A stretch of DNA of 64,000 bases from the human T2T-CHM13v2.0 reference genome, Homo sapiens: NCBI RefSeq assembly GCF_009914755.1, contig NC_060929.1, one strand, 5' to 3'. The notes beneath the pieces were generated by a model. It was not told where the DNA came from. It worked only from the letters and a program-made list of their open reading frames with translations, and searched no databases. Below are positions 31,021 through 37,682 of this stretch, in pieces (position 1 is the stretch's first letter; every line of letters starts with the position of its first letter). Position numbers and translations under genes: made by a program.

Positions 31021-31218
31021 CTTTTTTTGAGTCTTTTATTAGTTTATCAGAGATGTACATATGTAGGGAAGTACAAGTGATATTTTCATACATGTATACA
31101 ATGAGTAATGATTAAATCAGGGTAATTGGGATATCCATCATCTCAAACTTTGTTCTTTTCTTCGTATTGCGAACATTAAGATTCTCTTCTATTTTGAAAT
31201 ATACAATAAATAATTGTT
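31021..31218 (-). mobile_element. L1MA4/5-like 3' end, left piece (host of the chimeric insertion)
   Basis: 'catgtatacaatgagtaatgattaaatcagggtaattgggatatccatcatctcaaac...tttgaaatatacaataaataattgtt' continues seamlessly at 37683. Confidence 0.85.
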
Positions 31219-31431
31219 TTTTATTATTATTATACTTTAAGTTCCATGTACATGTGCACAACGTGCAGGTTTGTTATATATGTATACACGTGCCATGTTG
31301 GTGTGCTTCACCCATTAACTCATCATTTACATTAGGTATATCTCCTAATGCTATCCCTCCCCCCACTCCCCAGCCCACGACAGGCCCCAGTGTGTGGTGT
31401 TCATCACCCTGTGTCCAAGTGTTCTCATTGT

Positions 31432-34400
31432 TCAGTTCCCACCTATGAGTGAGAAAATGCGGTGTTTGGTTTTCCATCCTTGTGATAGTTTGCTCTAAGT
31501 GATGGTTTCCAGCTTCATCCATGTCCCTACAAAGGACATGAACTCATCCTTTTTTACAGCTGCATAGTATTCCATGGTGTATATATGCCACATTTCCTTA
31601 ATCCAGTCTATCATTGATGGACATTTGGGTTGGTTCCAAGTCTTTGCTATTGTGAATAGTGCCACAATAAACATACTTGTGCATGTGTCTTTATAGCAGC
31701 ATGATTTATAATGCTTTGGGTATATACCCAGCAATGGGATGGCTGGGTCAAATGGTATTTCTAGTTCTAGATCCTTGAGGAATCACCGCACTGTCTTCCA
31801 CAATGGTTGAACTAATTTACAGTCCCATCAACAGCGTAAAAGTGTTCCTACTTCTCCACATCCTCTCCAGCACCTGTTGTTTCCTGACTTTTTAATGATC
31901 ACCATTCTAACTGGTGTGACATGGTATCTCATTGTGGTTTTGATTTGCATTTCTCTGATGGCAAGTGATGATGAGCATTTTTTCACGTGTCTATTGGCTG
32001 CATAAATGTCTTCTTTTGAGAAGTGTCTGTTCATATCCTTCGCCCACTTTTTGATGGGGTTGTTTGATTTTTTCTTGTAAATTTGTTTAAGTTCTTTGTA
32101 GATTCTGGATATTAGCCCTTTGTCAGAGGGGTAGATTGCAAAAATTTTCTCCCATTCTGTAGGCTGCCTGTTCACTCTGATGGTAGTTTCTTTTGCTGTG
32201 CAGAAGCTGTTTAGTTTAATTAGATCCCATTTCTCAGTCTTGGCTTTTGTTGCCATTGCTTTTAGTGTTTTAGACATGGAAGTCCTTGCCCATGCCTGTA
32301 ACCTGAATGGTATTGCCTAGGTTTTCTTCTAGGGTTTTTGTGGTTTTAGGTCTATTTAAGTCTTTAATGCATCTTGAATTAATTTTTGTATAAGGTGTAA
32401 GGAAGGGATCCAGTTTCAGCTTTCTACATATGGCTAGCCAGTTTTCCCAGCACCATTTATTAAATAGGGAATCCTTTCCCCATTGCTTGTTTTTCTCAGG
32501 TTTGGCAAAGATCAGATGGTTGTAGATGTGTGGTATTATTTCTGAGGGCTCTGTTCTGTTCCATTGGTCTATATCTCTGGTTTGGTAACAGAACCATGCT
32601 GTTTTGGTTACTGTAGCCTTGTAGTATAGTTTGAAGTCAGGTAGTGTGATGCCTCCAGCTTTGTTCTTTTGGCTTAGGCTGGACTTGGCAATACAGGCTC
32701 TTTTTTGGTTCCATACGAACTTTAAAGTAGTTTTTTCCAATTCTGTGAAGAAAGTCATTGGTAGCTTGATGGGGATGGAATTGAATCTATAAATTACCTT
32801 GAGCAGTATGGCCATTTTCACGATATTGGTTCTTCCTATCCATGGGCATGGAATGTTCTCCCATTTGTTTGTGTCCTCTTTTATTTTGTTGAGCAGTGGT
32901 TTGTAACTCTCCTTGAAGAGGTCCTTCACATCCCTTGTAAGTTGGATTCCTAGGTATTTTATTCTCTTTGAAGCAGTTGTGAATGGGAGTTTTACTCATG
33001 ATTTGGCTCTCTGTTTGTTATTGGTGTTTAGGAATGCTTATGATTTCTGCTCATTGATTTTGTATCCTGAGGCTTTGCTGAAGTTGCTTATCAGCTTAAG
33101 GAGATTTTGGGCTGAGATGATGGGGTTTTCTAAATATGCAATCATGTCATCTGCAAACAGGGACAATTTGATTTCCTCTTTTCCTAATTGAATATCCTTT
33201 ATTTCTTTCTCCTGCCTGATTGCCCTGGCCAGAACTTCCAACACTATGTTGAATAGGAGTGGCGAGAGATGGCTTCCCTGTCTTGTGCCAGTTTTCAAAG
33301 GGAATGCTTCCAGTTTTTGCCCATTCACTGTGACATTGGCTGTGGGTTTGTCACAAATAGCTCTTATTATTTTGAGATACGTCCCATCAATACCTAATTT
33401 ATTGAGAGTTTTTAGCATGAAGAGATGTTGAATTTTGTCGAAGGCATTTTCTGCATCGCTTGAGATAATCATGTGGTTTTTGTCTTTGATTCTGTTTATA
33501 TGCTGGATTACGTTTATTGATTTGTGTATGTTGAACCAGCCTTGTATCCCAGGGATGGAGCCACTTGATCATGTCGGATAAGCTTTTTGATGTGCTGCTG
33601 GATTCGGTTTGTCAGTATTTTATTGAGGATTTTCACATCGATGTTCATCAGGGATATTGGTCTAAAATTCTCTTTTTTTTGTTATGTCTCTGCCAGGCTT
33701 TGGTATCAGGATGATGCTGGCCTCATAAAATGAGTTAGGGAGGATTCCTTCTTTTTCTATTGATTGGAATAGTTTCAGAAGAAATGGTACCAGCTCCTCT
33801 TTGTACCTCTGGTAGAATTCAGCTGTGAATCCATCTGGTCCTGGACTTTTTTTGGTTGGTAGGCTCTTAATTATTGCCTCAATTTCAGAGCCTCTTATTG
33901 GTCTATTTAGGGATTCAACTTCTTCCTGGTTTAGTCTTTGGAGAGTGTATGTGTCCAGGAATTTATCCATTTCTCCTAGATTTTCTAGTTTATTTGGGTA
34001 GAGTTGTTTATAGTATTCTCTAATGGTAGTTTGTATTTCTGTGGGATCGGTGGTTATATCCCCTTTATCATTTTTTATTGCATCTATTTGATTCTTCTCT
34101 CTTTTCTTCTTTATTAGTCTTGCTAGCGGTCTATCAATTTTGTTGATCTTTTCAGAAAACAAGCTCCTGGATTCATTGACTTTTTGAAGGGATTTTTTTA
34201 TCTCTATCTCCTTCAGTTCTGCTCTGACCTTAGTTATTTCTTGCCTTCTGCTAACTTTCGAGTGTGTTTGCTCTTGCTTCTCTAGTTCTTTTAATTGTGA
34301 TGTTAGCGTATCAATTTTAGATCTTTCCTGCTTTCACTTGTGGGCATTTAGTGCTCTAAATTTCCCTCTACACACTGCTTTAAATGTGTCCCAGAGATTC

Positions 34401-35258
34401 TGGTATGTTGTGTCTTTGTTCTCATTGGTTTCAAATAACATCTTTATTTCTGCCTTCATTTCATTATGTACCCAGTAATCATTCAGGAGCAGGTTGTTCA
34501 GTTTCCATGTACTTGAGCGGTTTGGGGTTTCTTAATCCTGAGTTCTAGTTTGATTGCACTGTGGTCTGAGAGACAGTTTGTTATAATTTCTGTTCTTTTA
34601 GATTTGCTGAGGAGTGCTTTACTTCCAACTATGTGGTCAGTTTTGCAATAAGTGCGATGTGGTGCTAAGAAGAATGTATATTCTGTTGATTTGGGGTGCA
34701 GAGTTCTGTAGATGTCTGTTAGGTCCACCTGGTGCAGAGCTGAGTTCAATTCCTGGATATCCTTGTTAACTTTCTTTCTCATGGATCTGTCTAATGTTGA
34801 CAGTGGGGTGTTAAAGTCTCCCAGTATTATTGTGTGGGAGTCTAAGTCTGTTTGCAGGTCTCTAAGGACTTGCTTTATGAATCTAGGTGCTCCTGTGTTG
34901 GGTGCATATACATTTAGGATAGTTAGCACTTCTTGTTGAATTGATCCCTTTACCATTATGTAATGGCCTTCTTTATCTCTTCTGATCTTTGTTGGTTGAA
35001 AGTCTGTTTTATCAGAGACTAGGATTGCAACCCCTGCTTTTTTTTGTTTTCCATTTGCTTGGTAGATCTTCCTTCATCCCTGTATTTTGAGTCTATGTGT
35101 GTCTCTGTATGTGAAATGGGTTTCCTGAATACAGCACACTGATGGGTCTTGATTCTTCATCCAATTTGCCAGTCTGTGTCTTTTAATTGGGGCATTTAGC
35201 CCCAATTTACATTTACATTTAAGGTTAATATTGTTATGTGTGAATTTGATCCTGTCAT
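31432..35258 (-). pseudogene. L1 ORF2p (endonuclease/RT) remnant
   Basis: EN motifs NVYAPN, GDFNTPLS, SDHSAIKLE; RT motif FADDM; C-terminal RCWRGCGE; split over several ORFs. Confidence 0.96.
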
Positions 35259-36347: not shown

Positions 36348-37384
36348 CTTTGTGGTTTTATCTACCTTTGGTCTTTGATGATGGTGACGTACAGATGGGA
36401 TTTTGGTGTGGATGTCCTTTCTGCTTGTTAGTTTACCTTCTAACAGTCAGGACCCTCAGCTGCAGGTCTGTTGGAGTTTGCTGGAGGCCCACTCCAGACC
36501 CTGTTTGCCTGGGTGTCACCATCGGAGGCTGCAGAACTGCAAATATTGCAGAAGAGCAAATGTTGCTCCCTGATCAATCCTCTGGAAGCTTCGTCTCAGA
36601 GGGGCACCTGGCCTTATGAGGTGTCAGTCAGCCCCTACTGGGAGGTGCCTCCCAGTTAGGCTACTCGGAATTCAGGGACCCACTTAAGGAGGCAGTCTGT
36701 TGGTTCTCAGATCTCATACTCCATGCTGGGAGAATCACTACTCTCTTCAAAGCTGTCAGATAGGGACATTTAAGTCTGCAGAAGTTTCTGCTGCCTTTTG
36801 TTCAGCTATGCCCTGCCCCCAGAGGTGGAGTCTACAGAGGCAGGCAGGCCTCCTTGAGCTGTTCTGGGCTCCATCCAGTTCGAGCTTCTAGGCTGCTTTG
36901 TTTACCTACTCAAGCCTCAGCAATGGTGAGCGTCCCTCCCCCAGCCTTGCTGCCACCTTGCAGTTCGATCTCAGGCTGCTGTGCTGGCAGTGAGCAAGGC
37001 CCCATGAGCATAGGACCCTCTGAGCCAGGTGTGGGATATAATCTCCTGGTGTGCCATTTGCTAAGACCATTGGAAAAGCAGAGTATTAGGGTGGGAGTAA
37101 CCCGATTTTCCAGGTGCTGTCTCTCATGGCTTCCCTTGGCTAGGAAAGGAAATTCCCCGACCCCTTGCACTTCCCGGGTGAGGCCATGTCTCGCTCTGCT
37201 TCAGCTCATGGTCCGTGGGCTGCACCCACTGTCCTGCACCCACTGTCTGACAAGTCCCAGTGAGATGAACCCAGTACCTCAGTTGGAAATGCAGAAATCA
37301 CCCGTCTTCTGCATGACTCACGCTGGGAGCTGTAGACTGGAGCTGTTCCTATTCGGCCATCTTGGAACCTCCCTGAACTTGATG

Positions 37385-37666
37385 TTTGTGCAAACTACTA
37401 GTACTGGAATGCCCAAGTTATGTGTAAGTGTATCCGCACCCAGAGGTAAAACTACACTGTCATCTTTGTCTTCTTGTGATGCAGTATTTCTTCTCAGGGG
37501 AGAAGCCAGGAAGTCTTCTCCTGGCTGTACATATTCTTGGAAGTCTCTAATCACCAGCAGTAGCATGTTCTTCCCCACAGGGAGCTTGGAGCACGAGCGG
37601 CTGGAGACCTCGCTGAGGATGCAGGACCAAAGGTTCTGCCCATCCTCGACATCTCCTGCCGCAGCC
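37385..37666 (-). pseudogene. DYNC1LI1: Processed (intronless) fragment of cytoplasmic dynein 1 light intermediate chain 1 mRNA with internal exon-skip, fused to the L1 5' end
   Basis: Translation AAAGDVEDGQNLWSCILSEVSSRSCSKLPVGKNMLLL|VIRDFQEYVQPGEDFLASPLRRNTASQEDKDDSVVLPLGADTLTHNLGIPVLVVCT matches recalled LIC1 residues ~37-73 and ~190-245. The symbol given is the parent gene. Confidence 0.95.
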
Positions 37667-37682
37667 ACAATAAATAATTGTT
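37667..37682. repeat. 16-bp target-site duplication (right copy; left copy 31203-31218)
   Basis: ACAATAAATAATTGTT is identical at both ends; the empty site reads TGTT/AA, close to the L1 endonuclease consensus TTTT/AA. Confidence 0.95.

What the first reader, a model, noticed from the sequence alone, without database searches (positions are those of the whole stretch)
31203..37682. DYNC1LI1 mRNA-L1 chimera inserted as one retrotransposition event
Seen: a 282-bp intronless DYNC1LI1 coding fragment (37385-37666) sits directly 5' of a full-length L1PA5-like element in the same orientation. The perfect 16-bp TSD ACAATAAATAATTGTT (31203-31218, 37667-37682) encloses both parts. The flanks rejoin into one continuous L1MA 3' end at an EN-like TGTT/AA site. 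The fragment has no poly(A) or TSD of its own. Known: L1 chimeras usually join U6 or other small RNAs to 5'-truncated L1s, and transductions are mostly 3'. Inference: this is a rarer class in which spliced protein-coding exons were captured at the 5' end of a complete L1.
Basis: partly seen in the sequence, partly recalled or inferred. Interest (0 to 1): 0.92.

Follow-up and report, generated by a model that had tools for sequence, protein, structure and literature searches.

The report
Dynein gene exons fused to L1
An old, dead, full-length L1 jumping gene on human chromosome 5 carries three spliced exons of the dynein gene DYNC1LI1 at its front end, both pasted in by one insertion event; it is a further example of a rare class that was catalogued in print in 2026.

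Summary
On the minus strand, one perfect 16-bp target-site duplication (31203-31218, 37667-37682) encloses, 5' to 3':
- one extra G
- 281 bp of DYNC1LI1 cDNA (37665-37385)
- an 11-nt filler of unknown origin (37384-37374)
- a 6,155-bp full-length L1 (37373-31219) with a 4-6 A tail

The cDNA is spliced. It holds the 3' 38 nt of exon 1, all of exon 2 and exon 5. Exons 3-4 are skipped. It stops 1 nt short of the exon 5 splice donor. There is no second repeat pair and no internal poly(A). The flanks rejoin into one older L1 3' end at a TT/AACA site.

[quoted passage not shown] How the two RNAs were joined is unresolved. I favour an RNA-level fusion that used the exon 5 donor (about 0.6) over template switching (about 0.25). 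No source L1 exists in DYNC1LI1 or elsewhere in this genome.

The class was described by Law & Burns (Cell Genomics 2026), who list 17 cases. This locus is not among them. It is a new member of a known kind. Co-arrival in primates could not be tested here.

The parts
31030..31202 (+). Left flank: older L1 3' end, the target of the insertion
   Evidence: 79-84% identical to many other old L1 3' ends (39 other places scored). Continuity with the right flank is seen in related loci.
31203..31218 (.). TSD copy next to the L1 poly(A)
   Evidence: Perfect 16-mer; the only shared word of 8 nt or more between the two junction zones.
31219..37373 (-). Full-length L1, 6,155 nt, L1PA5-like. The A tail is 31219-31222 plus up to 2 A shared with the TSD. 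The reading frames are broken.
   Evidence: Canonical 5' terminus shared with 29 related loci. Longest ORF is 181 aa. Pfam: Transposase_22/dsRBD at 35322-35732, Exo_endo_phos at 34498-34956, RVT_1 at 33038-33472. Own-branch divergence is about 4.9% over the first 1,900 nt.
37374..37384 (-). 11-nt filler CATCAAGTTCA between cDNA and L1; origin unknown. Its first C sits where the last G of exon 5 would be.
   Evidence: Matches neither exon 5, intron 5 nor exon 6. No word of 9 nt or more occurs in 60 kb of the parent locus. The junction is unique in the genome at up to 3 mismatches.
37385..37553 (-). DYNC1LI1 exon 5, 169 of 170 nt, lacking the last G before the donor
   Evidence: 4 differences in 169 nt from C3:32537979-32538148. 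The parent exon is bounded by ag| and |gt.
37554..37627 (-). DYNC1LI1 exon 2, 74 nt, complete, joined exactly to exon 5
   Evidence: 4 differences in 74 nt. Parent boundaries are ag|GTCCTG and CTGCTGG|gtaagt.
37628..37665 (-). 3' 38 nt of DYNC1LI1 exon 1 (5'-truncated, starting about 112 nt after the ATG), joined exactly to exon 2 with the roughly 203-nt intron 1 removed
37666..37666 (-). One unmatched G between the TSD and the cDNA
   Evidence: The parent has C at this place.
37667..37682 (.). TSD copy at the 5' end of the chimera
37683..37760 (+). Right flank: continuation of the same older L1 3' end. The empty site reads ...ACAATAAATAATTGTT|AACCGT... In L1 sense the nick site is TT/AACA.

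Best explanation
A single L1 target-primed reverse transcription event copied one chimeric template.

Shown: endonuclease nicking at 5'-TGTT/AA-3' inside an older L1 3' end gave a 16-bp TSD. One continuous insert lies between the TSD copies. It is a full-length L1 preceded by spliced DYNC1LI1 exons 1(part)-2-5.

Inferred: the two RNAs were already one molecule before reverse transcription. An aberrant DYNC1LI1 transcript (exons 3-4 skipped) used its exon 5 splice donor. The donor was spliced, in cis or in trans, to an acceptor about 10 nt upstream of an active L1PA5-like source element that has since been lost. This made an exon-flank-L1 RNA. Reverse transcription started at the L1 poly(A), ran through the whole L1 and the filler, and stopped inside exon 1 (5' truncation). 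The copy then decayed.

Confidence is about 0.93 for the single event. The 0.6 given below is for the RNA-level, donor-dependent fusion.
For: - One perfect TSD pair encloses both parts, and no other shared word of 8 nt or more lies at the junction zones.
- There is no A-run between the cDNA and the L1.
- Both parts are on the minus strand.
- The two exon-exon joints are exact at GT/AG boundaries.
- The cDNA stops 1 nt before the exon 5 donor. By my estimate, not a tool result, a random switch point would fall within 1 nt of an exon end in only about 1-2% of cases.
- The L1 begins at its canonical first bases.
- Overall divergence is alike in both parts: 13/281 = 4.6% for the cDNA and about 4.9% own-branch for the L1.
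- The same anatomy is described for 17 hg38 insertions. Of these, 6 end exactly at donors and 4 have short unmapped junction sequence of 2-12 nt. For 15 of the 17 the gene loci hold no intronic LINE-1 sequences. The authors favour splicing over template switching (section 13 read whole; Table S5).
Against: - The last exon 5 base is C, not G, so an exact donor junction needs a later substitution.
- The 11-nt filler has no known origin. The junction word is unique in the genome at up to 3 mismatches, so no source L1 with that flank survives.
- 60 kb of the parent locus holds only two small, old L1 fragments (65% identity over 610 nt and 84% over 61 nt) and no filler word of 9 nt or more.
- Intron 5 is only about 3.9 kb. 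The published cases tend to lie before long introns, median 48 kb.
- Non-CpG divergence of the cDNA (4 sites, about 1.6%) is lower than the L1's CpG-masked own-branch value of 4.2%. The counts are small and the L1 value includes pre-insertion divergence.
- Co-arrival in primates is untested.
Confidence: 0.6

Rival explanations
1. Template switching during TPRT. ORF2p copied a normal, capped, full-length L1 RNA to its 5' end, added untemplated bases (the filler), then jumped to a DYNC1LI1 RNA and copied it towards its 5' end. In the more specific form, the acceptor was a 5'-exon RNA that ended at or near the exon 5 donor, for example a released first-step splicing intermediate trimmed by 1 nt.
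For: The L1 part starts at the canonical first bases of the transcript. The filler has no template anywhere in the genome. The last exon base is missing. No source L1 is in the gene. Template switching is the accepted model for U6/L1-type chimeras (Law & Burns, passages from Figure 7; listings).
Against: A random internal switch would rarely land 1 nt from an exon end (my estimate). [quoted passage not shown] Classical template-switch chimeras carry 5'-truncated L1s, and this L1 is complete. The free 5'-exon variant has no direct support in anything I read.
Confidence: 0.25
2. Two separate events. A DYNC1LI1 processed-pseudogene fragment was inserted first, and an L1 later landed exactly at its 3' end, or the reverse order.
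For: Nested insertions are common in old L1-rich DNA (general knowledge).
Against: There is no second TSD pair: no shared word of 8 nt or more other than the 16-mer. The cDNA has no poly(A) of its own. No further DYNC1LI1 sequence lies beyond the L1, where the TSD and the old L1 flank follow directly. The outer TSD would then have to belong to only one of the two events, yet it borders the cDNA on one side and the L1 tail on the other.
Confidence: 0.03
3. Classical 5' transduction. Read-through from a promoter upstream of a source L1 copied unspliced genomic flank, here from a source L1 sitting next to an older DYNC1LI1 pseudogene elsewhere.
For: It would explain the sense orientation and the complete L1.
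Against: The fragment occurs nowhere else in the genome apart from the parent exons (3 of 3 scored places). The junction is unique.
Confidence: 0.04

Closest known systems
[quoted passage not shown] Examples are MAP3K13-L1PA5 and FHIT-L1PA4. I read sections 13, 20, 23 and most of 34, and Table S5 whole.
   Same: Sense-oriented spliced exons lie 5' of a near full-length L1. One TSD pair of 12-17 bp encloses both parts. There is an EN-type site and a tail only at the L1 end. The 5' part ends at or near a splice donor. Short unmapped junction sequence occurs in some cases (11 and 12 nt in two rows). No source L1 is in the parent gene. The MAP3K13 case has an L1PA5 with the same 5' variant.
   Different: This locus is not among the 17 rows: none is on chr5, and DYNC1LI1 occurs 0 times in the 4 readable supplement files. 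The captured exons are not simply the first exons: exons 3-4 are skipped and the last is exon 5. The 5' part is truncated inside exon 1, so no promoter came along. The downstream intron is short (3.9 kb). The junction is 1 nt short of the donor.
U6/L1 and other small-RNA/L1 chimeric retrogenes (template switching or RtcB ligation). Seen in search listings and abstracts only (PMC4476161, PMC6789731, PMC2104539).
   Same: A bipartite insert with one TSD pair and one tail, both parts in the same orientation.
   Different: In those cases the 5' part is a full small RNA and the L1 is usually 5'-truncated. Here the 5' part is a spliced, 5'-truncated mRNA piece and the L1 is complete. No Rfam family matches the junction.
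SVA 5' transduction of spliced MAST2 exon(s) (SVA-F1).
   Same: An upstream gene exon is spliced onto a retrotransposon RNA and co-mobilised.
   Different: The element differs (SVA, non-autonomous), and that chimera founded a subfamily. The DYNC1LI1 tag occurs once in this genome.

Membership tests
mRNA-LINE-1 5' chimeric insertion (Law & Burns 2026) | Unique RNA-derived, non-L1 sequence immediately 5' of the L1, in the sense orientation | tested here: met
   281 bp of DYNC1LI1 cDNA on the same (minus) strand, 11 nt from the L1 start.
mRNA-LINE-1 5' chimeric insertion (Law & Burns 2026) | One TSD pair flanking both parts, with an ORF2p EN-type site | tested here: met
   Perfect 16-bp TSD and site TT/AACA.
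mRNA-LINE-1 5' chimeric insertion (Law & Burns 2026) | Poly(A) only at the L1 3' end | tested here: met
   4-6 A at 31219-31222; no A-run at the cDNA/L1 joint.
mRNA-LINE-1 5' chimeric insertion (Law & Burns 2026) | The 5' part is spliced and ends at a splice donor | tested here: inconclusive
   Two exact exon-exon joints. The end is 1 nt short of the exon 5 donor and is followed by an 11-nt filler.
mRNA-LINE-1 5' chimeric insertion (Law & Burns 2026) | Both parts arrive in the same interval of the mammalian tree (MSA presence/absence) | not testable with these tools
   No other primate genome is on hand. The only proxy is the similar overall divergence, 4.6% against about 4.9%.
U6/small-RNA-L1 template-switch chimeras | The 5' part is a complete small non-coding RNA and the L1 is 5'-truncated | tested here: not met
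   No Rfam match at E of 1 or less in 37200-37800. The L1 is full length.
Classical unspliced 5' transduction | The 5' part is collinear with genomic DNA flanking a source L1 | tested here: not met
   The 5' part lacks three introns' worth of DNA. No L1PA-like element lies in C3:32510001-32570000. The junction is unique.
Independent processed pseudogene plus nested L1 | Each insert has its own TSD and tail | tested here: not met

The most novel reading that the evidence does not exclude
The chimera was not made by splicing into an acceptor. A 5'-exon RNA cut at the exon 5 donor (a first-step splicing intermediate, trimmed by one base) served as the acceptor when ORF2p, having reached the capped end of a normal full-length L1 RNA and added about 11 untemplated bases, jumped templates. 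If this is general, it would explain why several published exon-L1 chimeras join a donor-terminated exon to the very first bases of L1, where no acceptor exists. It would also link stalled or discarded spliceosomes to L1-mediated exon capture.
Probability: 0.15. Interest if true: 0.7.

Novelty: new member of a known kind. Interest (0 to 1): 0.4.

Why it matters
This adds an eighteenth human example, not in the published list, to a very small class in which a complete L1 picked up spliced host exons at its 5' end. That route is thought to let L1 sample new 5' regulatory sequence and to shuffle exons.

Three features of this case bear on the open question of mechanism (cis-splicing, trans-splicing or template jumping):
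- an internal exon follows exon skipping
- the junction is one base short of the donor and carries an 11-nt filler
- the downstream intron is short

The locus itself is a dead copy with no sign of function. It also shows that an alignment-based catalogue misses cases nested in old repeats.

Tried and rejected
1. Source L1 in DYNC1LI1. BLAST of the 6,155-nt L1 against C3:32510001-32570000 gave only two old fragments. Filler words of 9 nt or more were absent there.
2. Source anywhere in the genome. The 28-nt junction word at up to 3 mismatches matched only this locus.
3. Source found through its 3' TSD. The pattern 'L1 3' end, 3-33 nt, 10-nt filler' gave 2 places. The C2 place is a 5'-truncated L1 of about 780 nt whose own TSD is about AAAAATCA, so the match spans TSD and flank by chance. 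I did not examine the C11 place further; its matched string shows no A tail.
4. Filler from intron 5 or exon 6. It shares 4 of 11 bases with the start of intron 5 and 6 of 11 with a stretch starting 8 nt into exon 6 (counted by eye), which is no real match.
5. Filler from nearby DNA. An 11-mer (ACATCAAGTTC) recurs at 48834-48844 on the minus strand with no L1 start or splice-like context. About 0.06 such matches are expected by my estimate, so I treat it as chance.
6. Small RNA at the joint. None was found.
7. Second TSD pair for the L1 alone. None was found.
8. Print search. 'DYNC1LI1P1' gave 0 papers. DYNC1LI1 with LINE-1, chimeric and retrotransposition gave none of the 10 listed papers holding DYNC1LI1.

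Not tried: naming the subfamily with a repeat library, checking whether the exon 2-exon 5 isoform is annotated, and comparing primate orthologues. None is available here. The supplementary PDFs of Law & Burns (mmc1, mmc6, mmc7, which hold the supplementary figures) could not be read and could mention further loci.
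Full report
**What is in the sequence**

Read on the minus strand, the stretch 37682 to 31203 holds these pieces in order:
- a 16-nt repeat copy (37682-37667)
- one unmatched G (37666)
- 281 nt homologous to DYNC1LI1 (37665-37385)
- 11 nt of unknown origin, CATCAAGTTCA (37384-37374)
- an L1 of 6,155 nt (37373-31219) ending in GTATAATAATAAT plus 4 A, or 6 A if the first two A of the repeat are counted
- the second 16-nt repeat copy (31218-31203)

The two repeat copies are identical. 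They are the only exact word of 8 nt or more shared between the zones 31150-31260 and 37330-37730. In 2000 shuffles the longest shared word was 13 nt, seen in 2 of 2000. So the L1 alone has no second repeat pair. No A-run lies between the cDNA and the L1.

**The DYNC1LI1 part**

A whole-genome DNA search with the fragment scored 3 of 3 candidates: the locus itself and two places on contig 3. Frame 2 of the minus strand is open over the whole fragment. It matches Pfam DLIC at E 3.8e-30. The gene table gives the pseudogene as '+', but the sense strand is minus.

Aligned to the parent locus, the fragment breaks down as follows:
- the last 38 nt of the ATG-bearing exon, whose parent boundary is ...CCTTTG|gtaacg
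- the complete 74-nt next exon, bounded in the parent by ag|GTCCTG and CTGCTGG|gtaagt
- 169 of the 170 nt of a later exon, bounded in the parent by ag|TGATTAG and GCACAAAG|gttagt

A DLIC-profile scan of the genome places two further coding pieces of the parent gene between these (profile positions 31-80 and 71-149). They are absent from the fragment. So by my numbering the cDNA is exon 1 (part), exon 2 and exon 5, with exons 3-4 skipped and the frame kept. Both exon-exon joints are exact. The cDNA stops one base before the exon 5 donor, where the parent has G and the window has C, the first base of the filler. The cDNA differs from the parent at 13 of 281 places (4.6%). Eight of these are CpG transitions in the direction parent CpG to TpG or CpA.

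**The L1**

A search with its first 485 nt scored 40 of 7,306 candidates. In the 29 related loci that I fetched, the L1 starts at the place matching window 37373. Twenty of the 29 alignments begin within one base of that place, and the terminus is GGG(A/C)GGTTCCAAGATGG or a near variant. None has the filler. The element is therefore complete at its 5' end.

Its frames are broken: the longest ORF is 181 aa. The remnants lie in the expected order on the minus strand: ORF1 RBD/dsRBD, then endonuclease, then reverse transcriptase.

From pairwise distances over the first 1,900 nt, with no consensus built, its own branch is about 4.9%, or 4.2% with CpG masked. At the 0.17% per Myr used by Law & Burns after Khan et al., that is of the order of 25-30 Myr. 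This is an upper bound, because it includes divergence before insertion.

I could not name the subfamily with a library. The L1PA5 of the MAP3K13 chimera in Table S5 of Law & Burns has the same GGTTCC start, whereas their L1PA4 and younger elements have GGAGCC.

**The target**

The left flank matches thousands of old L1 3' ends at 79-84% identity. In 11 fetched copies, the word corresponding to the repeat is present once and the sequence after it runs on as the window's right flank does. One copy showed this at BLAST level, exactly adjacent. In pairwise alignment, 8 of 11 started at base 0-1 of the right flank, and for 5 of those 8 the local score exceeded all 100 shuffles. The empty site was therefore ...ACAATAAATAATTGTT|AACCGT... 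In L1 sense this is TT/AACA, which is the bottom-strand nick 5'-TGTT/AA-3'.

**What it is**

Several features together mean that one target-primed reverse transcription event inserted both parts (about 0.93):
- one repeat pair round both parts
- one tail
- the same orientation
- an endonuclease-type site
- similar overall decay of both parts

Two separate insertions would need a second repeat pair and a tail for the cDNA, and neither exists. A classical unspliced 5' transduction is excluded, because the 5' part is spliced and occurs nowhere else.

**How the two RNAs were joined**

This is not settled. The cDNA ends within one base of a splice donor. By my estimate, not a tool result, a random switch point would do so in about 1-2% of cases. 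This points to a transcript cut at that donor.

The simplest reading is splicing of exon 5, in cis or in trans, to an acceptor about 10 nt upstream of an active source L1. The filler would then be that flank, and a later G-to-C change would sit at the joint.

Evidence against this reading:
- No such source exists now. The 28-nt junction word is unique at up to 3 mismatches.
- The 60 kb round the parent gene holds only two small, old L1 fragments and no filler word of 9 nt or more.
- A search for the source's 3' repeat copy gave only chance hits.
- Intron 5 is 3.9 kb, not long.

The rival is template switching at the capped end of a normal L1 RNA, with the filler as untemplated bases. It becomes attractive if the acceptor RNA was a donor-cleaved 5' exon. 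I put RNA-level donor-dependent fusion at 0.6 and template switching at 0.25. About 0.15 of that 0.25 is for the free-5'-exon form.

**What is known**

Law & Burns (Cell Genomics 2026, PMC13174262) describe exactly this kind. I read sections 13, 20 and 23, most of the methods, and Table S5 whole.
- They list 17 hg38 L1 insertions with mRNA or lncRNA exons at the 5' end. Fifteen are in sense orientation, and most have near full-length L1s.
- Six end exactly at donors. Four have short unmapped junction sequence of 2-12 nt.
- For 15 of the 17 the gene loci contain no intronic LINE-1 sequences.
- The authors favour cis- or trans-splicing.

None of the 17 rows is on chr5. DYNC1LI1 occurs 0 times in the 4 readable supplement files. 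Three supplementary PDFs could not be read. 'DYNC1LI1P1' occurs in 0 papers of the library.

The locus is thus a new member of a known kind. It differs from the published cases in a skipped-exon isoform ending in an internal exon, a 5' truncation that left the promoter behind, a short downstream intron, and a joint one base short of the donor with an 11-nt filler.

**Limits**

No other primate genome, no repeat library and no transcript annotation were available. Co-arrival, subfamily names and the exon 2-exon 5 isoform remain untested. Exon numbers are mine.

Noticed in passing
window 37385-37665: The gene table gives DYNC1LI1P1 as '+', but the DYNC1LI1 sense strand here is minus. The open frame and the DLIC match are on the minus strand, and the parent exons align to the reverse complement.
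   Followed up: yes
window 36923-37684 (+): A 253-aa ATG-started open frame lies antisense to the insert. It starts about 450 nt inside the L1 5' UTR, near where L1 ORF0 lies as I recall it. It runs out through the L1 start, the filler and the whole antisense cDNA, and stops in the TSD. It has no Pfam match. It is a mechanical ORF with no evidence of use.
   Followed up: partly
window 48834-48844 (-): An 11-mer identical to the last cDNA base plus the first 10 filler bases recurs 11 kb away. Its context shows no L1 start and no splice-like feature. About 0.06 such matches are expected by my estimate, so I treat it as chance.
   Followed up: yes
L055 2400-3240 (G000:C2:175308400-175309240, -): A 5'-truncated L1 of about 780 nt (90.5% identity to the window's L1 3' end) has a tail followed by the 10-nt filler word. 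Its own TSD is about AAAAATCA, so the likeness is by chance.
   Followed up: yes
window 30900-30960: A (GAAA)n/(GGAA)n microsatellite lies just left of the old L1 3' end.
   Followed up: no
L003 1575-1777 (G000:C3, -): The parent gene has a short (about 203 nt), very GC-rich first intron inside the coding region. It is cleanly removed in the pseudogene.
   Followed up: partly
window 37220-37247: A perfect 14-nt tandem duplication (CTGCACCCACTGTC x2) lies inside the L1 5' UTR.
   Followed up: no
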